Assembly: GCF_001462395.1 (NCBI RefSeq)
Contig: NZ_LNTB01000001.1
Location: forward strand, 1,050,001-1,082,000
From: Pyrodictium occultum
GTDB taxonomy: Archaea > Thermoproteota > Thermoprotei_A > Sulfolobales > Pyrodictiaceae
Direction of reading: 5' to 3'
DNA length: 32,000 bases
How positions within the stretch are numbered: the stretch's first letter is position 1; the number at the start of each line of letters is the position of its first letter. Below are positions 8,868-32,000 of this stretch, piece by piece. The notes below the pieces were generated by a model that searched no databases, was not told the origin of the DNA, and saw only the letters and a list, made by a program, of their open reading frames with translations. The position numbers and the translations under genes are program-made.

Positions 8868-8979
8868 GCCGCCGTAGCTCAGCGGTAGAGCACCGGCCTC
8901 GTAAGCCCCGCTGGGGTCCAGGAGCCGCGGGTTCCGAGGGAGCCGGGGGTCCCGGGTTCGAATCCCGGCGGCGGCTCCA
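8868..8979 (+). tRNA. tRNA-Thr (anticodon CGT) with a 37-nt intron at the canonical 37/38 position, CCA encoded
   Basis: Structure is GCCGCCG-TA-GCTC-AGCGGTA-GAGC-A-CCGGC-CT[CGT]A // intron 8904-8940 // A-GCCGG-GGGTC-CCGGG-TTCGAAT-CCCGG-CGGCGGC-T-CCA. All four stems are fully paired. Confidence 0.85.
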
Positions 8980-9143
8980 GTCGCGGGCCTTCCCCAACCC
9001 ACCATCCGGCTCCATACCCTCATGTTCATGTCCCTCCTTAATTTTCCTAACACTTTATTGATAATTCGCTAACCTAGGATAATAACGTTTATAATGTATA
9101 TCCGTTACTATGTTCTCCTCCCCTCTTTTCATGGGATGATGTA

Positions 9144-9451
9144 ATGGTTAGGAAGGTTAGGGTTTTAGCTGTTGAGGATAGGTCTTGGTGGATGCAGCCT
9201 CTCTTCAGCTTCCCGTTTATTGGAGGCCTGAGCGCTAGGCAGTTGCTAATCATTGTTTCATCATTATATCAGCATCACTATCGATAGGTGGCGGGTTGAG
9301 GTTTGGGGAAGTAGCTGTTATCGTGCTTGTATCAGGCTTCGTAGGTCTGGGTATTGCGAAAAAGCCTGTTAAATCAGTGCTTCCCGAGAAACAGTTTCTA
9401 GTGTTTCTTACAGGCAGGCATAGGCCTAGGATTAGCCGAGGAGCTGGCTAA
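9144..9451 (+). pseudogene. PrgI/VirB3-like small membrane protein, split by one frameshift
   Basis: Frame A (9144-9287) reads MVRKVRVLAVEDRSWWMQPLFSFPFIGGLSARQLLIIVSSLYQHHYR*. Frame B (open from 9239, stop 9449-9451) reads ..ASLSIGGGLRFGEVAVIVLVSGFVGLGIAKKPVKSVLPEKQFLVFLTGRHRPR... Joined, they give about 100 aa with the F.GL(S/T).RQL motif plus two TM helices typical of PrgI-family proteins encoded upstream of VirB4. Confidence 0.4.
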
Positions 9452-9591
9452 TGTGTGGGAGGTTACAGGACTAGATCTGGGGTCTAGGAAGCCTATACCA
9501 TTAAGTTACATAGAAGTATTCAAATGGGATCCCTTCACAGACACATTCTCTCCCAGCACTCCCGAAGAAGTATTGGAGAAAAGCCACAGGC

Positions 9592-9906
9592 TTAAACAAA
9601 TAGCTGAGGCAAACGGTTTAACTCGGAAAGAGTTGCTTGAGCCATTATTGCTCCTGCCAAGATTATTAGCCCAAGCCTCTTCTTAGCCCTAGCCTGTTCT
9701 TCTGGTGTATCCGCTGTGGCAAGCTGGATCCCGGTGCAGATCATTCCGCCTATTAAAACTGCTATGCCTAGATACTGCAGGAGCCCTAGGATCTTGTCAA
9801 CCATTGTAACAAGCTCCTCAGGCGGCTGAGTCTCATCCTGAGCATACACTATACTAGGCAGAATCACAGATAGCCATACCGGAAAAAGCTTGGCAATAGC
9901 GCGCAT
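9592..9906 (-). CDS. VirB2/TrbC-like (CedA1/TedC-like) conjugative-type pilin candidate
   Basis: 104 aa. It has a signal peptide (MRAIAKLFPVWLSVILPSIVYA/QD), then two hydrophobic helices (LGLLQYLGIAVLIGGMICTGI and LGLIILAGAIMAQA) joined by a charged loop (ADTPEEQARAKKR). An A/T-rich box (ggtaaattaaac, 9925-9936) lies about 25 nt upstream of the ATG, suggesting a leaderless transcript. Confidence 0.5.
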   Translation of the reverse strand: MRAIAKLFPVWLSVILPSIVYAQDETQPPEELVTMVDKILGLLQYLGIAVLIGGMICTGIQLATADTPEEQARAKKRLGLIILAGAIMAQATLSELNRLPQLFV

Positions 9907-10078
9907 CCGCCTGCTAAACCCGGTAAATTAAACACATATCTAACACCACAAAGAAACACGTGGTAAAACATAGTTACATATAAATGAAGAAGCGTTTATC
10001 TTTCTTAGAAAGTTATCTGGGCTCTTTGATGAGTAGAGGTTTACATTTTAAAACGAGCAATTGGCTGGGATTGTGTTT

Positions 10079-10729
10079 TCATATGCGTCTATACTTGAGT
10101 GTATCTAGTAGAAGTTTGAGTATGAATGTTGCCAGTCCTATAAGTGATTCTACTTGATATAGTGTTAGTGCTGGACCGGGTGCTAGATGGGGTTGTGTGG
10201 GTTCAGGGCCTCTTGTTGAAATTGTCTTGACATTGGTAAAAACTTCTGTCACGAGCTTAGCTAATAGCTCGTTTCCTTGGAATAGTTCTTTAAGCTTTTC
10301 CTTAACTAGCATGCATCCTCCATTTTGGCTCCTAGTAGCGAGTTTTAAGGGTTCCAACGCATAGCAGGCTTCTATGAGGGCATTCCTAAGAGCTGTTAAT
10401 GGTGGTCCAATACTAAGAGTCTCATATATAGCCTCTCTAGCTCGCTTTAGCGACTTAATAGCATTAATAAAGCGCTGTAAGGACTCCTCCGGCTCTGGTA
10501 ATGGCCCTGGTAATGGGAGCTCTAGCAATACATAGTTTCCAAGTCCTAGTGCGGGGGCAAAATCTCTAACCCATCTAGGACCCTCAATTGTAATAGGTGT
10601 CTCATATTCGCTATATACAGTATTGTTTATACCCAGTAATTTTAATTTGTTTATACCCAGTAATGGTTTTCCGGCTTTTAACATTACAGCATCATTTGGG
10701 AGCCCGGCTAAACGAAAATCCTTTCCCAC
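10079..10729 (-). CDS. hypothetical protein (216 aa), distal gene of a two-gene operon
   Basis: GTG start 4 nt after the stop of the upstream 143-aa gene. The C-terminal half is helix-rich and ends in a hydrophobic segment (LIGLATFILKLLLDTL). It contains an in-frame 24-bp tandem duplication (LLGINKLK/LLGINN). No known motif was recognised. Confidence 0.55.
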   Translation of the reverse strand: MGKDFRLAGLPNDAVMLKAGKPLLGINKLKLLGINNTVYSEYETPITIEGPRWVRDFAPALGLGNYVLLELPLPGPLPEPEESLQRFINAIKSLKRAREAIYETLSIGPPLTALRNALIEACYALEPLKLATRSQNGGCMLVKEKLKELFQGNELLAKLVTEVFTNVKTISTRGPEPTQPHLAPGPALTLYQVESLIGLATFILKLLLDTLKYRRI

Positions 10730-10733
10730 CCTA

Positions 10734-11165
10734 TTATATGTCGTCTGGATGATGAACCGTACTGTAAAGTACTATAAATCTTATTTTAAGCTTCAATTCA
10801 ACTCTATGATACTTGTTTATTCTCCTCCTCTCCTCAATATAGTTTATAGATTTAGGATCTAGTAATGCTTTGCCTCCGAGGATCAGAGTATGCTTGAGAT
10901 CTCTGGGATACTTCTCCCCGTAATCTACTATTATTTGTGGAGGAAATGATGTACCGCTGAATGAAACCTTGTCAAGAATGATTCGTGTCAGAAATTTTTC
11001 ATCATCAGAATATAGTGCGCCATCTACTGGAATATAAATCCCTCTACCAGCATCAAATCCTTCAACACGGACATTAAACATGAGGCATGGAGCTATTGTG
11101 TCTCTGCAGGGTTCCACGTTGGTAGAGGTAATCTTAGGTGATTCCAACTCCATCGCCCACTGCAT
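10734..11165 (-). CDS. hypothetical protein (143 aa), proximal gene of a two-gene operon
   Basis: ATG at 11165. An A/T-rich TATA-like stretch (11188-11202) and an 18-bp perfect palindrome lie immediately upstream. The sequence looks beta-rich, with no known motif recognised. Confidence 0.55.
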   Translation of the reverse strand: MQWAMELESPKITSTNVEPCRDTIAPCLMFNVRVEGFDAGRGIYIPVDGALYSDDEKFLTRIILDKVSFSGTSFPPQIIVDYGEKYPRDLKHTLILGGKALLDPKSINYIEERRRINKYHRVELKLKIRFIVLYSTVHHPDDI

Positions 11166-11169
11166 TTTA

Positions 11170-11187
11170 GGGGAACCCCGGTTCCCC
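11170..11187. promoter_or_regulatory. perfect 8-2-8 palindrome (GGGGAACC cc GGTTCCCC), operator-like
   Basis: It sits between the TATA-like stretch and the ATG (11165) of the minus-strand operon. A repressor bound here would block initiation. Confidence 0.45.
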
Positions 11188-11404
11188 TATTATTTTTATT
11201 TGCAGGGGCTGAAATAGCACGAAAGCCCCCGACCATCCTCACCACAAATTTGTGGCTCAACTGTTTAGGGGGCTCCAACGCATCTTGAACCCCCAACCAA
11301 AGGAAACCCTCTCTATACTCCTTATTGTTTAGGGGAGGCTTCACAGCTCCTCCCAGCCCCCTTAGGAAGGCTGAGAACCGGGGAGTTCTCATCTATGATA
11401 CAAG

Positions 11405-11422
11405 TCTCCATGAGCATGGAGA
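11405..11422. repeat. second perfect 8-2-8 palindrome (TCTCCATG ag CATGGAGA)
   Basis: It has the same geometry as 11170-11187 but a different sequence, and lies in the same 415-bp divergent intergenic region. A further 6-bp inverted repeat, GAGAAC..GTTCTC, is at 11373-11390. Confidence 0.4.
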
Positions 11423-11580
11423 AGGCGAGTAGTTTCCTCCCCAACTATAAGGCTCTCTAAGACTATTCCGCTATGGGATTATGGAAGAAGCTGGTAGTAT
11501 ATATTGCTTAGAGACATTATTCTGGCTGGTTTTATAAAGTATTACCACTATATTCTCTCATAGGAGGTGATATAGTGTTT

Positions 11581-11736
11581 ATGCCTATATTATCCGTTAC
11601 ACGTATCGGTAAATACTATAGAACCACTGTTCCACGTGAAGTAAGGAAGCTTCTAGACCTTCATGAGAATGATGAAATAGAATGGGTTTTCGAAGAAGGA
11701 AGAATAGTTGTTGGGAAGGCTGGGAGCCATGGTTAA
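11581..11736 (+). CDS. AbrB/SpoVT(MazE/VapB-like) swapped-hairpin DNA-binding protein
   Basis: 51 aa, MPILSVTRIGKYYRTTVPREVRKLLDLHENDEIEWVFEEGRIVVGKAGSHG. The core (..TVP.EVRK.L.L...D.I.W....G.IV) is classic AbrB/SpoVT. A strong Shine-Dalgarno sequence, GGAGGTGAT, lies 9 nt upstream. Confidence 0.75.
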   Translation: MPILSVTRIGKYYRTTVPREVRKLLDLHENDEIEWVFEEGRIVVGKAGSHG

Positions 11737-11950
11737 ATGCCCATACTGTGGATACGAAGTAGACATCTCCAAGTTTAAACTGTTAAAAGAGCCGCGGAGG
11801 TTTAGATTTTACACGGTTAGAATACTTGAATGCCCCAAATGCCGTAGCGAATTCAACTACTACTATGGCATAAGCCCTCATGGTAAAGTATCAGAGTTTA
11901 CTACTCTATTAGAATATGTCCTAGGCGGAGAAAAAGTTATAAAAATATAA
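11729..11950 (+). CDS. small zinc-ribbon protein (CPYC...CPKC)
   Basis: 73 aa starting MVKCPYCGYEV. Its ATG overlaps the AbrB-like gene stop by 8 nt (ATGGTTAA), implying translational coupling. Two CxxC pairs are 32 residues apart. Confidence 0.6.
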   Translation: MVKCPYCGYEVDISKFKLLKEPRRFRFYTVRILECPKCRSEFNYYYGISPHGKVSEFTTLLEYVLGGEKVIKI

Positions 11951-12091
11951 AAGCATTGTAGGTGACTTGTGTGAGCAGGGAGGGGGAGATCAGGTTTGCT
12001 CCTGATCTATGGTATAAGTTGAAGAATTATCTTCAAAGCTATATAATATTTATTACATTCTTATTAAGAACAAATTAACAGGGGATCTAAA

Positions 12092-13009
12092 ATGAGCTGG
12101 ATCCTAAGGTGGGCATTTGACAAGTCTACGTACTCGCCAGGAGACACAGCTACTGTGAGCTTCTGGGTTGAAAATACTGGCGATAATTATCTATATTTTA
12201 GTGATTTTGAAATAGAGTTCGACTTCGGAAAATACAGGATCAATACTGTGGCAGGAGCTATTCCCCCTAGGAGCAATATGTACTTGGGTACCGCGAGAAT
12301 ATTGTTGCCTAAAAATGTTGTTGGCAGAAAAATATTTCTAATAAGGCACCGTGTCTACGAGTACTTTAGCAATACATGGGTTGATAGAGGTATTGTGGAG
12401 TATGAGAGGAGGTATTTCTTAAGTATATATCCGCAGCCATTATACAGGGTATTCGTCTCTAGAGGCTTGCGTACTGAGGATAGAGTTATTGGCGATCCCA
12501 TAGTGGAAATGATAAAGGAGTGGGGATTCGAAACGGTTACAATAGGCGTAGAAGTAAAGGTTAGAGAGGAGGAAGTTCCTCAGGCGGTAAGAAGAGAAAT
12601 AGCGAGATCCGATGCTGTAATAGCAATAGCGACACCAAGGCATCTTGATGCTTTGACAGGGCTCTGGAGAACACTAGAGTGGCTCTATAGTGAGACAGGA
12701 ATAGCCTACGGTTTGAATAAACCCATGCTAATAATTAAGGATGAAAGAGTATCATTGGGAGGACTACCTTCCTACCTGACAAGATATGGAAATGCGCCAA
12801 TAATAGAATTTAACCCCTATAAACTCGATGAACTAAGAACAAAATTAGCCACAATAATGCCCGGCTTCAGGGAGTGGATTGAGACAAAAAGACGTCTAGA
12901 ATTCTTTGAAGCCTTAAAGAAGCTGGCAATGTTTGGACTGGCCATGGTGGGAGCTATTCATATCCTGCCAGGTATTGTCGGAGCTCTCATAGGACATTCA
13001 AAGAAATAA
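12092..13009 (+). CDS. tail-anchored protein: N-terminal CARDB/Ig-like beta-sandwich + TIR/nucleoside-2-deoxyribosyltransferase-like domain + C-terminal TM helix
   Basis: 305 aa. Residues 1-115 (STYSPGDTATVSFWVENTGDNYLYF...) resemble a CARDB-like sandwich. Residues 119-245 alternate beta and alpha (VFVSRG / ETVTIG / VRREIARSDAVIAIATPR / WLYSETGIAYGLNKPMLIIKDE), as in TIR-like (DUF1863) and deoxyribosyltransferase-like folds, with a conserved Glu (E201, 12692-12694). Residues 278-301 (LAMFGLAMVGAIHILPGIVGALIG) form a TM helix. There is no N-terminal signal peptide. The gene has its own A/T-rich promoter region and a T7 terminator. Confidence 0.6.
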   Translation: MSWILRWAFDKSTYSPGDTATVSFWVENTGDNYLYFSDFEIEFDFGKYRINTVAGAIPPRSNMYLGTARILLPKNVVGRKIFLIRHRVYEYFSNTWVDRGIVEYERRYFLSIYPQPLYRVFVSRGLRTEDRVIGDPIVEMIKEWGFETVTIGVEVKVREEEVPQAVRREIARSDAVIAIATPRHLDALTGLWRTLEWLYSETGIAYGLNKPMLIIKDERVSLGGLPSYLTRYGNAPIIEFNPYKLDELRTKLATIMPGFREWIETKRRLEFFEALKKLAMFGLAMVGAIHILPGIVGALIGHSKK

Positions 13010-13031
13010 AATGGTCTGAAAAATAACTTAC

Positions 13032-13038
13032 TTTTTTT
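13032..13038 (+). terminator. T7 run, archaeal oligo-T terminator after 12092..13009
   Basis: cTTTTTTTa lies 23 nt downstream of the stop codon. Confidence 0.5.
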
Positions 13039-13238
13039 ATCCTAGAAGAAACCTTTAGAACTGACAGCTCCTATCATAAAAGAAGGATGAAGGTCTCGTA
13101 ACTAAATAGCTCTACATATTCAATAGGCCCTTCTTGTGGCTTCATGAAGTGTTCTAAAAATATAATTTGAGTTGAAAGATTTTATGGGATTAATCAGCAT
13201 CCGTAACTATATTCCTACATACTATGCGTTATTAGGTG

Positions 13239-13690
13239 ATGGCTTTGATCAAACTAAAACGCCTTGAGGAAGTAGTGTATCTGGGTTTATTCAATAATAA
13301 AGCATATGGTATCTATAAGGACGATAGGTGCATATTGCTATATTTGGTGAGTCTGGTACTGGTAAGTCTACATTGTTGAAGTTTCTGATAAAGCAACACA
13401 TTGATCTCGGCGAGGGCTTCACTCTTCTCGACCCTCATGGAGACCTTGCACTTGAGATTGTCATGCTTATACCTGAGGACAAGATTGATAGGCTTGTATA
13501 CATTGACCCTGTAACAGCCAGCGTGTATGGCAGTACTGTTAGGATTAATTTCCTCGAGTACCGCGATGTGCAGGAGTTGGAGCGTGTTGGTGAATCGTTT
13601 ATATCAGCCCTTCAAAAATTATTCTAGGGATTTCTGGGGTCCCCGTCTCGAGCACATACTTAGGAACTGTGTGTACACTATTCTAGAGCA
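13239..13690 (+). pseudogene. VirD4/TraG/HerA-like P-loop NTPase, N-terminal fragment with two frame breaks and 3' truncation
   Basis: Three frames are needed. The first is MALIKLKRLEEVVYLGLFNNKAYGIYKDDR (from ATG 13239). A shift near 13325 leads to HIAIFGESGTGKSTLLKFLI..LLDPHGDL...RINFLEY...FISALQKLF* (Walker A). A shift near 13620 leads to SRDFWGPRLEHILRNCVYTILEQ. Homology-like sequence stops where composition turns GC-rich, near 13690. Walker B and the rest of the ATPase are absent. Confidence 0.6.
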
Positions 13691-13928
13691 GCCTCCCGGC
13701 TCAACGCCCCTTCTCCCCCAGCCTCTCCAGGGCCCCCGGGAGCCCGCTCTCCTCATTGAAGGATGGGGTGCAGGGGCTCAGCTACCCCAGGGTAGCTGGC
13801 GTCATCCCTAGCGCTCGGCAGGCATGACTCTCGTCACAGCCCCGGAGCGCCGGGAGCCTGGGGGCCTCCGAAATCCCCTTCTCCCCAGAGCCTCGGCTAG
13901 GGCCCGAGCCCTGCCTACCCGGGGTGAC

Positions 13929-15317
13929 ATGGGTGTGCCGAAACTCCCCTGGGCCCCTGCGGCGAATAGCAAAGACCGTAGAGAAATGCTCGAGCGTATT
14001 GGAGTTAAAGGCGTGATGGAGCTATACCGGGATATACCGAGGGAGATTATACTCCGGGAGCCCCCGCGTGTGGGGTTCGGCCGCCAGCTCTCCGAGTGGG
14101 AGATAAGGAGGATCATCGACCGGCTTCTCGCCAGGAACCGTGTGTTCCTGGACCCGCCGCCCTTCATGGGCGGCGGTGCCTGCATGCACGTGGTCCCGGC
14201 GGCTGTGGAGGCCATAGTTTCCAGGAGCGAGTTCTATACAGCCTATACGCCATACCAGCCGGAGGTAAACCAGGGCCTCCTCCAGGCCTTCTTCGAGTAC
14301 CAGAGCCTAATGGCTGACCTGCTCGAGATGGATGTAGTCAACCTATCCATGTACGACTGGAGCACCGCCGCGGCGGAGGCGGCGCTGGCGGCCATGCGCG
14401 TTACGAGGAGAAGGAAGATAGTGGTAGCGGGTAATATACACCCGGAGCGCCTAGAGGTTATGAAGACCTGGCTGCTGGGCAAGGACGCCACCCTGGAGAT
14501 CCTAGGCTTCGACGGGGAGACGGGGAAGACCAGCCTAGAGGATGCAGAGAGCAGGATAGACGCCGGCACGGCCGCGGTCTATGTAGAGACGCCCAACTTC
14601 CTGGGAGTGATAGAGGACGAGATAGAGGCTATAGCAGATGCAGCCCACCGGAGAGGGGCACTGCTGATAGCTGGTGTAGAGCCGCTCAGCCTAGGCATAG
14701 TAAGGCCCCCTGGGAGCTACGGGGCAGACATAGCTGTCGGAGACGCCCAGCCCCTCGGCCTGGGGCTCAACTATGGAGGCCCCTACCTCGGCGTCTTCGC
14801 CACCCGCTGGGACCGGAGGCTAGTTAGGCAGATGCCCGGCCGCCTCATAGGGCTCACGAGAGCCGTCGACGGCGAGGAGTACGGGTTCACTATGATACTC
14901 CAGACCCGCGAGCAGCACATACGCAGGGAGAAGGCTACCTCAAACATAACCAGCAACGAGGCCCTCCTGGCTGTGGCGGCTGCCGCCTACCTCTCCCTGC
15001 TGGGCGGCCAGGGGCTGCGCGAGCTAGCCAGGAGCATCTGGCTCCGCAGCCACTACGCCGCCAAGAGGCTAGGCGAGCTAGAGGGTGTTGAAGCCCCTCT
15101 CTTCAAAGGCGAGTTCTTCAAGGAGTTTGTGGCCAGGTTTCCCAAGCCCTACAGGGAGGTGCACAGCGCCCTGCTGGAGAAAGGGATCCTGGGCGGTCTA
15201 CCCCTCGCGGAGAGGCCCCCGCTCCAGGACGAGCGCTCCGCCCTCTTCTGCGTCACCGAGGCCCATAGCATGAGTGATATAGACAAGCTCGTAGAGGCGG
15301 TGGGTGAGGCCCTATGA
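13929..15317 (+). CDS. gcvPA: glycine dehydrogenase (decarboxylating) subunit 1 (P-protein alpha)
   Basis: From ATG 13929 it reads MGVPKLPWAPAANSKDRREMLERIGV..., the typical subunit-1 N-terminus. It also has the YTPYQPEVNQG..Q..FEYQ motif. The upstream part of track ORF 13824.. is R/P-rich and probably not coding. Its stop overlaps the gcvPB start (ATGA). Confidence 0.9.
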   Translation: MGVPKLPWAPAANSKDRREMLERIGVKGVMELYRDIPREIILREPPRVGFGRQLSEWEIRRIIDRLLARNRVFLDPPPFMGGGACMHVVPAAVEAIVSRSEFYTAYTPYQPEVNQGLLQAFFEYQSLMADLLEMDVVNLSMYDWSTAAAEAALAAMRVTRRRKIVVAGNIHPERLEVMKTWLLGKDATLEILGFDGETGKTSLEDAESRIDAGTAAVYVETPNFLGVIEDEIEAIADAAHRRGALLIAGVEPLSLGIVRPPGSYGADIAVGDAQPLGLGLNYGGPYLGVFATRWDRRLVRQMPGRLIGLTRAVDGEEYGFTMILQTREQHIRREKATSNITSNEALLAVAAAAYLSLLGGQGLRELARSIWLRSHYAAKRLGELEGVEAPLFKGEFFKEFVARFPKPYREVHSALLEKGILGGLPLAERPPLQDERSALFCVTEAHSMSDIDKLVEAVGEAL

Positions 15318-30231: not shown

Positions 30232-30780
30232 TAGAATTCCTTGAGGACTTGAGGAGAGCCATAGGGTTCTACTACACTGTTTACAGGGTTATGCTTGAAT
30301 CAGGTGCTAGGTATACCCATGTCCTAAGAATGATCAAGGAATGGAATCCTAGTGAGATTATTGAGATACCTGGTGTAGACATAGTATACCAGAGACTAGT
30401 ATGCTTTGGGGACAGGGGTTTCTGTAGATATTGTAGATACTACATGGGGGTACGTGGATCAACTAAGCAGTGTAAGCGGATATACTTCTCCCATAAGACC
30501 CTGGAATTATTAGAGCAGATTACTCCTAGGAGTATAAGCAGGCATCAGCCTAGAAAATATGCTGAGAAACACGGCTTAATCCTACCAAAGTTATATGAGG
30601 AAGATTGCTTGGAGACTAATGACCAAGGCTATGAACAGGGAGGTAGCAAAATTCATACAATCAAGGTTCGGGGAGCTAAGGGTAAGCGAGGCAAGATACG
30701 AAGACCTACTAGAAGAAGCAGATCAAGCATACCCAGAATACCTAAAGCATCTGGTTAAAATAGGTCTTACCGACTACTAA
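30232..30780 (+). pseudogene. tyrosine recombinase, SSV-type integrase C-terminal (catalytic) part, frameshifted
   Basis: Frame 1 reads LEFLEDLRRAIGFYYTVYRVMLESGARYTHVLRM (box I Arg)...IYFSHKTLELL...KYAEKHGLILPKLY. A shift near 30590-30596 leads to MRKIAWRLMTKAMNREVAKFIQSRFGELRVSEARYEDL (RK..., catalytic Tyr in ARY). No N-terminal domain is present, and the AT-rich homology begins exactly at the composition boundary. Confidence 0.6.
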
Positions 30781-30865
30781 TGTGAGTAAATAAAGAAATG
30801 AAAGAATTGGTCTTACATCACTCCCTCATTCCTATAACCTGTCACGATGAAGTCACCAGGTCTTC

Positions 30866-31981
30866 TTAACTGTTGATTAAGTTTTCCAGAAGCTCAGTGA
30901 TTGGTATAATTTTTCTTGAACCAAAATCTACTCCGAAAAACTCTATCTTATCCCCATATCTCTTCCTGTAGATGTTTCTGAGAGCAAGTATATCCTTAAA
31001 ATATATCATTAACTGGGGGTTTGGTATTATTATCCATAACTTCAAGCCTTTCTTAAGCCTTGATTCTATTCTTCTCCTAAGCTTTAGCATTGGAAGACCT
31101 GTTCCATATAGGGTCTCTATTTCTACTGCTAATTCGCCTAATTCTGAATCTCTTACGTATACATCTAATCTCCCATCAACAAATTCATATTCGGTTCTTA
31201 TATTTTCTTCCCTAACTCCTATCCTCTTAAGATATTCAACAACAAAAGCTTTTAGTGCATAATGGAGGATAGATTCACCACCAATGTTTTCCTCATCCTC
31301 ACTGCTAGGTTCTACGGAAACTATTGTGGTTATTTTGCTTGCAAGTCTTTCTATTTCATCAAAGTACAAATCTTCTAATCTTACAACAGTCGCATCCAAA
31401 TTGAATAATACTGGAGTCTCCTTTCTTACTATACCCCACATGACTTGAGCAAGTTTAAAAACAATATCATCCTCTTTTATATTAACCTCATAGTATTTTG
31501 GAAATGGTGAATCGATCTTAAGAATCTCCTTAACCTTACTAAGCTTCTCCTCACTACCATAAAATACTAGGAAACCAAGGTTTTGAGAATAAAGTTCCTT
31601 AAGCCTATCCTTAAGATATCTTGTCTCAACATCTACTTTGTCTAAATCTAAGACCCAAACATGTTTATCAGCTCTTATGTCTAGTTTAATTTCATCGAAA
31701 TCTATAGCTTCCATGTGTGCTGGTCTTGGCAACCCTTTGCCATGTATTCTATAAATTTCTCTTAGAATTCTCTTTAATAACTCTACGTATTCGAATTTCT
31801 TGTTTTTAGGCTTTCTTGCAAGAATTATTGCTGGCCTATTAATGTTTAGCTTAAATCCCGACCCAAATATAGTTTGTATCGGATCAAGGAATTCTAATTT
31901 CTCCACTTCATCAGAAGGAATAGTAAGACCAGCTGATACCGCAGTCTTTTCAAATAATAAGTCCTTTAGATATCTTTTCAC
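30866..31981 (-). CDS. hypothetical protein with PD-(D/E)xK nuclease-like C-terminal domain
   Basis: 371 aa. The C-terminal GESILHYALKAFVVEYL...GRLDVYVRDSELGELAVEIETLYG fits the E...D...ExE/K restriction-endonuclease-fold core. The N-terminal 230 aa or so has no recognised motif. The gene is AT-rich like the rest of the element. Confidence 0.6.
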   Translation of the reverse strand: MKRYLKDLLFEKTAVSAGLTIPSDEVEKLEFLDPIQTIFGSGFKLNINRPAIILARKPKNKKFEYVELLKRILREIYRIHGKGLPRPAHMEAIDFDEIKLDIRADKHVWVLDLDKVDVETRYLKDRLKELYSQNLGFLVFYGSEEKLSKVKEILKIDSPFPKYYEVNIKEDDIVFKLAQVMWGIVRKETPVLFNLDATVVRLEDLYFDEIERLASKITTIVSVEPSSEDEENIGGESILHYALKAFVVEYLKRIGVREENIRTEYEFVDGRLDVYVRDSELGELAVEIETLYGTGLPMLKLRRRIESRLKKGLKLWIIIPNPQLMIYFKDILALRNIYRKRYGDKIEFFGVDFGSRKIIPITELLENLINS

Positions 31982-32000
31982 AGTAATTGTATCGATTCTA

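What the first reader, a model, noticed from the sequence alone, without database searches (positions are those of the whole stretch)
9030..13690. AT-rich island flush with tRNA-Thr is a decayed conjugative-type integrated element lacking its integrase
The tRNA-Thr ends at 8979. About 50 nt later the sequence becomes markedly AT-rich, and it returns to host-like GC-rich sequence around 13690. Conjugation-related genes are present but mostly broken. These are the PrgI/VirB3-like gene (one frameshift), a short ORF after it (9453..) that runs into the convergent pilin gene and may be a VirB4 N-terminal stub, and the VirD4/HerA-like ATPase (two frame breaks, 3' half missing). I found no integrase gene and no convincing direct repeat of the tRNA 3' half at the far end. 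The element therefore seems immobilised, while its cargo ORFs remain intact, which would fit domestication.
Basis: partly seen in the sequence, partly recalled or inferred. Interest (0 to 1): 0.6.

Follow-up and report, generated by a model that had tools for sequence, protein, structure and literature searches.

The report
Decayed conjugative element beside tRNA-Thr
A 4.7-kb AT-rich insert just after a tRNA-Thr gene in a Pyrodictium genome is the broken, immobile remnant of a conjugation-type mobile element acquired from a lower-GC archaeal lineage; this is an ordinary kind of genomic fossil.

Summary
Window ~9006-13715 has 42% GC against 63.5% for the genome (z = -4). It lies 26 nt after an intron-bearing tRNA-Thr(CGU). 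It is absent from three congeneric genomes, where the tRNA lies 160-185 bp from gcvPA.

The headline reading also holds: this is a decayed type-IV-secretion (conjugative-type) integrated element with no integrase and no far-end repeat.

- ORF 9453-9686 is the C-terminal stub of a FlaI/VirB11-type (T2SSE) ATPase, not a VirB4 N-terminus. A ~3.4-kb internal deletion removed the VirB3-like 3' end, all of VirB4 and about 80% of the T2SSE gene.
- The VirD4-like coupling ATPase keeps only residues 2-156 of ~651, with two frameshifts. It ends at 13715.
- The cargo is not all intact. ORFs 10734-11165 and 10079-10729 are one ~355-aa gene split by a frameshift. Domestication is therefore not supported.

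New points:
- Related elements, nearest in a Desulfurococcales MAG and in vent/hot-spring-type metagenome contigs, repeatedly start 126-165 nt after a tRNA.
- The left junction here keeps a 22-nt exact fossil of another tRNA's 3' end plus element flank.

Verdict: a new member of a known kind (archaeal ICE remnant), of modest interest.

The parts
8868..8979 (+). Intron-bearing tRNA-Thr(CGU). It is intact and is the host landmark upstream of the island.
   Evidence: Rfam RF00005, 56 bits. The 3' half is identical in three congeners. The anticodon was read by eye.
8980..9005 (.). 26 nt of host tRNA trailer, conserved in congeners. The element is therefore inserted after the tRNA gene, not inside it.
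   Evidence: Alignment with the empty sites of G001-G003.
9006..9143 (+). Left end of the element. Positions 9006-9027 (CCGGCTCCATACCCTCATGTTC) exactly match the last 9 nt of a different tRNA plus the adjoining element flank in metagenome locus L086. A leader conserved across the element family follows.
   Evidence: Local alignments; multiple alignment of eight family members.
9144..9436 (+). VirB3/PrgI-like pseudogene. Residues 1-38 are in one frame and about 40-98 in another (frameshift near 9257). The C-terminal Ig-like half is missing.
   Evidence: 79% and 51% identity to the 205-aa protein at G141 L073:7886-8503, which sits directly upstream of a VirB4-like gene. There is no Pfam hit, so the name rests on position and topology only.
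9437..9686 (+). Internal deletion junction at about 9436-9445, followed by the C-terminal stub (about 75 aa) of a T2SSE (FlaI/VirB11-type) secretion ATPase.
   Evidence: 61% identity to residues 431-504 of a 531-aa T2SSE protein. It matches the C-terminal ends of ATPases with 480-580-aa open reading frames in 98 of 351 class genomes. In G141 locus 2 the two flanks lie 3.4 kb apart.
9592..9906 (-). Uninterrupted VirB2/TrbC-type pilin gene (104 aa). It has a signal peptide ending VYA/Q, two hydrophobic helices and a conserved ADTPEEQARAKKR loop.
   Evidence: Pfam TrbC (36.4 bits, cut-off 27.9) and T4SS_pilin (28.7 bits, cut-off 26.6). It is 67% and 55% identical to the homologues in G141 and G028. 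Apart from the window's own copy, strong matches (E below 1e-17) occur in only 5 of 351 class genomes, none in the host's own family.
10079..11165 (-). One cargo gene of unknown function (about 355 aa), split by a frameshift near 10730-10745 into ORFs of 143 aa and 216 aa. It also carries an in-frame 24-bp tandem duplication (10623-10670).
   Evidence: All homologues are 325-357 aa long. The 143-aa ORF aligns to residues 4-138 and the 216-aa ORF to residues 145-353 of P0245. The duplication is repeat D8.
11575..11950 (+). AbrB/MazE-fold gene (53 aa) overlapping a zinc-ribbon gene (80 aa). Both are uninterrupted.
   Evidence: Pfam MazE_antitoxin, 35 bits; NCBIfam AbrB domain. Their lengths were not checked against homologues.
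12092..13009 (+). Uninterrupted 305-aa gene encoding an N-terminal beta-rich domain, a TIR/deoxyribosyltransferase-like middle and a C-terminal membrane helix. It is full-length relative to its family.
   Evidence: About 200 homologues, nearly all 300-311 aa and 56-76% identical, occur in archaea and bacteria. One carries Pfam TIR_2. The hit to Nuc_deoxyrib_tr is weak, and there is no PADLOC hit.
13251..13715 (+). N-terminal stub of a VirD4-like coupling ATPase: residues 2-156 of about 651, Walker A included. It has a 1-nt deletion near 13325 and a 1-nt insertion near 13624. Homology stops at 13715/13716, the terminal deletion junction.
   Evidence: 75-87% identity to G141 L028:3011-4966. That protein carries DUF87, TrwB_AAD_bind, TraG-D_C and PadR domains, and its relatives are annotated as T4SS DNA-binding or coupling proteins.
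13716..13823 (.). GC-rich host DNA upstream of gcvPA (which runs 13824-15317). The block 13773-13845 is conserved in congeners.

Best explanation
The island is the dead remnant, about 4.7 kb of what was probably well over 15 kb, of an archaeal type-IV-secretion (conjugative-type) integrated element.

Origin. The element came from a lower-GC lineage; its nearest relatives are in Desulfurococcales/Desulfurococcaceae MAGs. It entered this Pyrodictium chromosome 26 nt downstream of tRNA-Thr(CGU), after the split from the three sequenced congeners.

Family features.
- Members normally begin 126-165 nt after the 3' end of a tRNA gene.
- They open with a VirB3-like gene followed by VirB4, a FlaI/VirB11-type ATPase and a TadC-like platform protein.
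- The nearest relative, G141, also carries a VirB2-type pilin and a VirD4-like coupling ATPase (its locus 1).

Inferred entry. Recombination took place at a secondary site. The left junction keeps only the last 9 nt of the element's cognate tRNA copy, fused to its conserved flank.

Decay, shown directly by the sequence.
- One frameshift in the VirB3-like gene.
- A 3.4-kb internal deletion that took out VirB4 and most of the T2SSE ATPase.
- Two frameshifts in the coupling ATPase.
- One frameshift and a 24-bp duplication in a cargo gene.
- A terminal deletion from codon 157 of the coupling ATPase to just upstream of gcvPA. This removed the rest of the element, its right attachment site and (inferred) its integrase.

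Consequence. The element can neither excise nor build a transfer apparatus. No VirB4 or coupling ATPase of this kind exists elsewhere in the genome. The four ORFs still open (pilin, AbrB-like, zinc ribbon, 305-aa TIR-like protein) need no selection to explain their survival.
For: Composition outlier.

Empty site in G001, G002 and G003, with collinear flanks.

Gene identities:
- pilin:
- coupling ATPase stub:
- T2SSE stub:
- VirB3-like gene with its frameshift and the deletion junction:

Intact VirB3-like, VirB4 and T2SSE genes in that order, with T2SSF following where the contig extends far enough, in relatives.

A tRNA lies directly upstream in G141 locus 1 and in L082, L084, L085, L086 and L087.

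22-nt exact fossil at the left junction.

No integrase domain in the island. No far-end repeat. No VirB4 or coupling ATPase copy elsewhere in the genome.

Split cargo gene.

The closest pilin and ATPase relatives lie outside the host's own family.

The gene repertoire matches published archaeal ICEs: VirB4 and VirD4 ATPases, VirB3, TadC, FlaI, ParB and TFIIB (PMC6563490).
Against: No integrase or right att site was found for any member of the family examined, including the G141 loci. Integrase-mediated insertion is therefore inferred, not shown.

The insertion point is 26 nt outside the tRNA, which is atypical.

The VirB3-like assignment has no profile support.

The single-base frameshifts could in principle be assembly errors. 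They are not in long homopolymers (by eye), and the deletions cannot be errors of that kind.

No same-species genome was available to date the decay.
Confidence: 0.85

Rival explanations
1. Domesticated remnant. The transfer genes decayed, but the surviving ORFs (pilin, AbrB and zinc-ribbon pair, 305-aa TIR-like membrane protein) are kept by selection because they serve the host, for example in defence.
For: The 305-aa gene is full-length and belongs to a highly conserved, widely transferred family. Four frameshifts lie in about 2.1 kb of recognisable pseudogene sequence. At that rate about 3 would be expected in the 1.6 kb of open ORFs, so P(none) is about 0.05 (my calculation from the coordinates).
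Against: A cargo gene is also broken, so decay is not specific to transfer genes. For the 305-aa gene alone, P(no lesion) is about 0.17. The pilin has no assembly machinery left anywhere in the genome. No orthologue in a sister genome is available to measure constraint.
Confidence: 0.12
2. Island 1 and the second AT-rich island (window 30235 to about 34400), which carries an SSV-type integrase fragment, are two halves of one element split by a rearrangement. On this reading the integrase is displaced rather than lost.
For: An archaeal-type integrase fragment (PF16795) begins exactly at the second island's boundary, 16.5 kb away. Both islands are truncated on the side facing the same host segment. 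The two have similar composition.
Against: The 16.5-kb segment between the islands is collinear and in the same orientation as in G001 and G002, which a single inversion cannot produce. The supposedly similar sequence at 13680-13698 lies inside coupling-ATPase coding sequence, 17 nt before the true junction. The second island sits beside its own tRNA at a site that is also variable in G001 and G002, and G001 has a homologous integrase there. No relative of the T4SS element has this integrase nearby.
Confidence: 0.06
3. A decaying chromosomal Ced/Ted-type DNA-import system rather than a mobile element.
For: The island has a VirB2-type pilin and HerA/VirB4-superfamily ATPase remnants, as Ced/Ted systems do (PMC9905601).
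Against: It is absent from all three congeners, which have a clean empty site. Its composition is foreign. Its relatives are tRNA-flanking and patchily distributed. The pilin profile matches no solved chain at E <= 1 except one unrelated hypothetical protein (E = 0.85), so it matches none annotated as CedA1, TedC or VirB2.
Confidence: 0.02
4. The DNA entered by illegitimate or micro-homology recombination of an imported chromosomal fragment from a donor that already carried the element, not through the element's own integrase.
For: The junction lies outside the tRNA. No integrase or attR is present. The right end is a truncation inside a gene.
Against: The left breakpoint falls 9 nt inside the element's tRNA-derived attachment sequence, where a tRNA-targeting recombinase would be expected to cut. 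The host trailer at the junction loosely resembles a tRNA T-arm and acceptor.
Confidence: 0.2

Closest known systems
Archaeal integrative-conjugative elements as described in Thaumarchaeota (Krupovic et al. 2019, PMC6563490) and the pNOB8-type conjugative plasmids of Sulfolobus
   Same: The parent family has a VirB4 and VirD4 ATPase pair, VirB3-like and TadC-like membrane proteins, a FlaI-type ATPase, a ParB-like gene and TFIIB-like genes nearby. It inserts beside tRNA genes, is patchily distributed, and has no recognisable relaxase.
   Different: The host is a Pyrodictium and the nearest relatives are Desulfurococcales. The pilin is a Pfam-recognisable VirB2/TrbC type; PMC9905601 states that no pilus protein is recognisable on archaeal conjugative plasmids. 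This copy is a 4.7-kb wreck with no VirB4, integrase or attR.
Cryptic integrated elements derived from ICEs by loss of the conjugation apparatus (e.g. NitVie-E4 in PMC6563490)
   Same: A shrunken integrated element that retains only one or a few conjugation genes.
   Different: Here the losses are visible as frameshifts and truncations inside the genes, and no replication or integration module survives.
Ced (Sulfolobales, Aeropyrum) and Ted (Thermoproteales) DNA-import systems (PMC9905601)
   Same: A VirB2-fold pilin with a cleavable signal peptide, as in TedC, and HerA/VirB4-superfamily ATPases.
   Different: The island is not a conserved chromosomal locus. It has no VirB6-like CedA/TedA gene and no VirB4-like CedB/TedB gene. 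The pilin profile finds no match among solved chains annotated as Ced/Ted pilins.
tRNA-targeted genomic islands and proviruses of Crenarchaeota that use SSV-type or pNOB8-type integrases
   Same: Location beside a tRNA 3' end and a foreign composition.
   Different: There is no integrase or integrase fragment in the island, no direct repeat of the tRNA, and the insertion lies 26 nt beyond the gene.

Membership tests
Integrative-conjugative element (archaeal T4SS type) | Inserted DNA with an empty site in related genomes | tested here: met
   The tRNA-Thr to gcvPA spacing is 160-185 bp in G001, G002 and G003, against 4.8 kb here.
Integrative-conjugative element (archaeal T4SS type) | VirB4/TrbE-type ATPase | tested here: not met
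   It is absent from the island and from the whole genome. It is present directly after the VirB3-like gene in intact relatives, so it has been deleted here.
Integrative-conjugative element (archaeal T4SS type) | VirD4/TraG-type coupling ATPase | tested here: met
   Present only as a pseudogene covering residues 2-156 of 651, with two frameshifts. The full-length relative carries TrwB_AAD_bind and TraG-D_C domains.
Integrative-conjugative element (archaeal T4SS type) | VirB2/TrbC-type pilin | tested here: met
   Pfam TrbC and T4SS_pilin, both above gathering score.
Integrative-conjugative element (archaeal T4SS type) | VirB3/PrgI-type small membrane protein next to VirB4 | tested here: inconclusive
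   No Pfam, NCBIfam or PDB profile match for the N-terminal part. Support comes only from gene position, two hydrophobic segments and a PrgI-like motif read by eye.
Integrative-conjugative element (archaeal T4SS type) | Integrase and flanking att direct repeats | tested here: not met
   No PF00589 or PF16795 match in the island. No repeat of the tRNA 3' half at the far end. Only a 9-nt foreign tRNA end survives at the left junction.
Integrative-conjugative element (archaeal T4SS type) | Capacity to excise and transfer | not testable with these tools
   Predicted to be lost, from the gene damage. Confirming this needs an excision PCR or a mating assay.
Ced/Ted DNA-import system | Conserved chromosomal locus with a VirB6-like (CedA/TedA) and a VirB4-like (CedB/TedB) gene beside the pilin | tested here: not met
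   The locus is absent in congeners. No VirB4-like gene exists in the genome. No multi-pass membrane gene lies in the island.
SSV-type partitioned-integrase provirus or island | Integrase gene split into Int(N) and Int(C) at the two att sites overlapping the tRNA | tested here: not met
   No PF16795 signal occurs at either end of island 1. The only nearby fragment belongs to the separate island at window 30246-30747.

The most novel reading that the evidence does not exclude
The island documents an undescribed family of tRNA-flanking T4SS elements in hyperthermophilic Desulfurococcales and Pyrodictiaceae. The family combines a bacterial-type VirB2 pilin with a VirB4, FlaI and TadC module. It could be the mobile counterpart from which Ced/Ted-like import systems were domesticated. 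The fossil junction here would then record an off-target integration that defines the family's att core. In addition, the surviving 305-aa TIR-like tail-anchored protein could be a functional single-gene defence cargo.
Probability: 0.25. Interest if true: 0.5.

Novelty: new member of a known kind. Interest (0 to 1): 0.3.

Why it matters
The island shows horizontal entry of conjugation-type DNA from a ~40-50% GC lineage into a 63% GC Pyrodictium. The genus assignment rests on G002's contig length, 2,023,836 bp, which equals the published P. delaneyi Su06T genome size.

It also gives a clean, datable example of how such elements are immobilised: loss of the terminal att and integrase, together with internal deletions.

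The wider value lies in the relatives it led to. They form a tRNA-associated T4SS module with a recognisable VirB2-type pilin in hyperthermophilic archaea. This bears on the origin of the Ced/Ted DNA-import systems.

The island itself is a non-functional fossil and has no evident physiological role.

Tried and rejected
1. A possible displaced attR at G000:C1:59943-59996 (94% identical to the tRNA 3' half). It is simply the 3' half of a second tRNA-Thr(GGU) gene in normal-GC DNA.

2. Degenerate repeat CCGGCTC at both island ends. The right-hand copy is coupling-ATPase coding sequence (EQPPGST) conserved in G141, so it is not an att site.

3. Island 1 and island 2 as one inverted element. Rejected on synteny and on the position of the junction.

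4. The low-GC island on contig 2, which has the same tetranucleotide flavour. It is a glycosyltransferase and methyltransferase surface-glycan cluster with no T4SS genes.

5. Search for an integrase in relatives. None was found near G141 locus 1 or locus 2, or in eight metagenome loci.

6. Scan of viral contigs with the VirB3-like profile: no relatives.

7. PDB sequence-profile searches for the VirB3-like protein and the pilin gave no T4SS match.

8. PADLOC and PHROGs gave nothing informative for the cargo.

The 35.6-kb ENA contig carrying the 86%-identical ATPase (P0003) therefore could not be inspected.

10. ARAGORN cannot type the intron-bearing tRNAs. tRNA identities other than those read by eye are left open.

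Full report
**Observation.**
- Rfam finds an intron-bearing tRNA at 8868-8976. With its encoded CCA it ends at 8979.
- The anticodon loop reads CU-CGU-AA by eye, so it is tRNA-Thr(CGU). ARAGORN's Leu call is an artefact of the intron.
- GC falls from 0.53-0.68 to 0.36-0.48 between about 9000 and 13500.
- Segment 9020-13715 has GC 0.420. Same-length windows across the 1.62-Mb genome average 0.635 +/- 0.054, so z = -4.0.
- Only 0.46% of windows are as low. All of them fall in this island, in a second island at window ~30.2-34.4 kb, or in a contig-2 cluster.
- Tetranucleotide distance from the genome gives z = +6.2.
- The genome belongs to the genus Pyrodictium. Same-genus genome G002 has a contig of 2,023,836 bp, the published size of P. 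delaneyi Su06T (PMC5556600).

**It is an insertion.**
- In G001, G002 and G003 (same genus, ~70-76% nucleotide identity in the flanks), the tRNA region and the conserved block upstream of gcvPA lie 160-185 bp apart. Here they are 4.8 kb apart.
- The host-like tRNA trailer continues to about 9005.
- The next 16.5 kb (gcvPA to a polysaccharide deacetylase) is collinear with G001 and G002.

**Anatomy, left to right.**
1. **VirB3-like pseudogene, 9144-9436.**
   - Residues 1-38 are 79% identical to a 205-aa protein of G141. Residues ~40-98 continue in another frame at 51% identity, including GLGIAKKPVKSVLPEKQ-LVFLTGR. This means one frameshift near 9257.
   - In G141 locus 2 and in five metagenome loci this protein is followed directly by a VirB4-like ATPase of about 609 aa where complete (AAA_10, P-loop_TraG). 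In three of those metagenome loci, as in G141 locus 2, a T2SSE ATPase comes next. In two of them a T2SSF/TadC-like protein of ~770 aa follows.
   - No profile library recognises the small protein itself. 'VirB3/PrgI-like' therefore rests on its position and topology.
2. **Internal deletion at ~9436-9445.**
   - Homology jumps here to residue ~425 of the T2SSE ATPase.
   - ORF 9453-9686 aligns to residues 431-504 of 531 (61% identity, E 2e-31).
   - It also matches the C-terminal ends of secretion ATPases with 480-580-aa open reading frames in 98 of 351 genomes of the class, including the host's own copy at 656-658 kb.
   - In G141 the two flanks lie 3.4 kb apart. One deletion therefore removed the VirB3-like C-terminal Ig domain, all of VirB4 and about 80% of the T2SSE gene.
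VirB4 did, however, once follow the VirB3-like gene.
3. **Pilin, 9592-9906 (minus strand).** It is uninterrupted and passes Pfam TrbC and T4SS_pilin. It is 67% identical to the G141 pilin through both helices and differs only in the last ~12 residues.
4. **Split cargo gene, 10079-11165 (minus strand).**
   - All 18 homologues of the 216-aa ORF are 325-357 aa long.
   - The 143-aa ORF aligns to residues 4-138 of P0245 and the 216-aa ORF to residues 145-353.
   - A full HMMER scan confirms that the 143-aa ORF matches the N-termini of the same proteins.
   - This is one gene with a frameshift near 10730-10745, plus an in-frame 24-bp tandem duplication (D8; the 8-residue insert).
5. **Open ORFs.** These are an AbrB/MazE-fold ORF (53 aa) overlapping a zinc-ribbon ORF (80 aa), and a 305-aa ORF. 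The 305-aa ORF is full-length relative to a tightly conserved family found in both archaea and bacteria. One member of that family carries TIR_2.
6. **Coupling ATPase stub, 13251-13715.**
   - It reproduces residues 2-156 of a 651-aa G141 protein at 75-87% identity. There is a 1-nt deletion near 13325 and a 1-nt insertion near 13624.
   - The full-length protein has DUF87, TrwB_AAD_bind, TraG-D_C and a C-terminal PadR domain. Its wider relatives are annotated as T4SS coupling or DNA-binding proteins.
   - Homology ends abruptly at 13715/13716. The GC-rich stretch 13692-13715 is still ATPase coding sequence (EQPPGSTPLL).

**Relatives and the left junction.**
- Apart from the window's own copy, strong pilin matches (E below 1e-17) occur in only 5 of 351 genomes of the class, none in the host's family.
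- The best relative is G141, a Desulfurococcales MAG (JALVYU01). Its locus 1 has the same order and orientations: VirB3-like, then a convergent pilin, then the coupling ATPase. The first gene starts 147 nt after an intron-bearing tRNA (Tyr by eye).
- A metagenome scan with a VirB3-like profile found eight loci.
- In L084, L085, L086 and L087 a co-directional tRNA ends 126-147 nt before the VirB3-like start.
- L082, which has an intact four-gene module, begins inside the same tRNA 3' half as G141 locus 1.
- The leader between tRNA and start codon is homologous across the family.
- In the window, 9006-9027 (CCGGCTCCATACCCTCATGTTC) is an exact 22-nt match to L086. There, CCGGCTCCA is the 3' end of a different tRNA and the rest is element flank.
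- The island's left end therefore carries a 9-nt fossil of the element's cognate tRNA-derived attachment sequence, joined to host trailer 26 nt beyond tRNA-Thr.
- I infer recombination at a secondary site. Illegitimate recombination of imported DNA is the alternative.

**Integrase and right end.**
- Six-frame searches find one Xer-type recombinase, far away at 345 kb.
- They also find SSV-type integrase signal only at 1127.9 kb (open frame of 313 aa) and at window 30246-30747.
- The fragment at 30246-30747 lacks its first ~132 residues and is frameshifted.
- It opens a second 4.1-kb AT-rich island that lies near another tRNA next to argS. That site is also variable in G001 and G002, and G001 has a homologous integrase there.
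- The intervening 16.5 kb is in ancestral order and orientation.
- No relative of the T4SS element has this integrase nearby.
- I therefore treat the two islands as independent remnants.

**Domestication.**
- Recognisable pseudogene sequence (~2.1 kb) carries four frameshifts. At that rate the 1.6 kb of open ORFs would be expected to carry about three, so P(none) is about 0.05. For the 305-aa gene alone it is about 0.17. This is my own arithmetic.
- One cargo gene is broken, and no VirB4, coupling ATPase or other family component exists elsewhere in the genome to use the pilin.
- Selection on the survivors is therefore possible but not indicated.

**Comparison with known systems.**
- The parent family's repertoire is VirB4 and VirD4-like ATPases, VirB3-like, TadC-like, FlaI-type ATPase, with ParB-like and TFIIB-like genes nearby.
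- This matches what has been described for thaumarchaeal ICEs and is related to Sulfolobus conjugative plasmids (PMC6563490).
- VirB4 homologues are patchy across the class, in 55 of 351 genomes.
- One distinctive trait is a Pfam-recognisable VirB2 pilin. PMC9905601 notes that no pilus protein is recognisable on archaeal conjugative plasmids.
- The island is not a Ced/Ted system. It is not conserved in congeners and lacks the VirB6-like and VirB4-like partners.

**Verdict.** The headline interpretation is supported and two sub-claims are corrected. This is a new, badly decayed member of a known kind.

**Limits.**
- No same-species genome was available.
- No integrase or attR has been identified for any family member.
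- tRNA identities in relatives were read by eye.

Noticed in passing
window 30235-32000, continuing to about genome C1:1084400 (L050:2230-6400): A second AT-rich island (GC 0.37, ~4.1 kb). It opens with a 5'-truncated, frameshifted SSV-type integrase (PF16795, residues ~133-313 of a 313-aa paralogue). Two large ORFs (554 and 404 aa) with no Pfam match follow. It ends ~400 bp from a tRNA next to argS. The same deacetylase-to-tRNA interval holds 12-16 kb of other DNA in G001 and G002, and G001 has a homologous integrase there. This looks like an integration hot spot.
   Followed up: partly
G000:C1:1127870-1128808: An apparently intact SSV-type integrase (313-aa open frame, PF16795 65 bits). It probably marks another integrated element about 48 kb beyond the window.
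   Followed up: no
G000:C2:84000-99000 (L051): A 15-kb low-GC (0.43) island whose tetranucleotide profile is very close to island 1. It encodes glycosyltransferases, methyltransferases, an epimerase and a nucleotidyl transferase, i.e. a horizontally acquired surface-glycan cluster. It has no T4SS genes.
   Followed up: partly
window 12092-13009: The 305-aa protein belongs to a family of nearly uniform length (~300-311 aa) that is 56-76% identical across Baldrarchaeia, Conexivisphaerales, Dehalococcoidales and many metagenomes. One member carries TIR_2. There is no PADLOC model. Conservation this high across domains suggests a mobile, possibly defensive, single-gene module.
   Followed up: partly
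L081:2569-5490 and L082:2681-4804: In two metagenome relatives the T2SSE ATPase gene is one continuous ORF of 973 or 707 aa. An insert of ~1.1 or ~0.5 kb sits between the two homologous halves, most simply an intein.
   Followed up: no
L028 (G141:C26:100-111 kb) and L073 (G141:C26:247.9-258 kb): The closest relative genome carries the T4SS genes at two loci about 140 kb apart. One holds tRNA-Tyr, a VirB3-like gene, a HEPN/MNT pair, the pilin and the coupling ATPase. The other holds VirB3-like, VirB4 and T2SSE genes, a 768-aa protein and ParB. Neither has a nearby integrase. These could be two elements or one split element.
   Followed up: partly
window 8980-9005 and G000:C1:59983-59996: Both tRNA-Thr genes (CGU and GGU) are followed by the same trailer, GTCGCGGGCCT. 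It is conserved in congeners and loosely resembles a tRNA T-arm. Its function is unknown; it could be a processing or termination signal, or an old att scar.
   Followed up: no
G002:C1:695-714 kb; G007:C1:297-318 kb; G018:C11:6-29 kb: Other Pyrodictiaceae and related genomes hold clusters with a coupling-ATPase-like gene, VirB4 and, in G007 and G018, a T2SSE gene within ~20 kb (G002 has a weak pilin-like hit instead). These are candidate intact elements of a more distant branch (27-43% identity).
   Followed up: no
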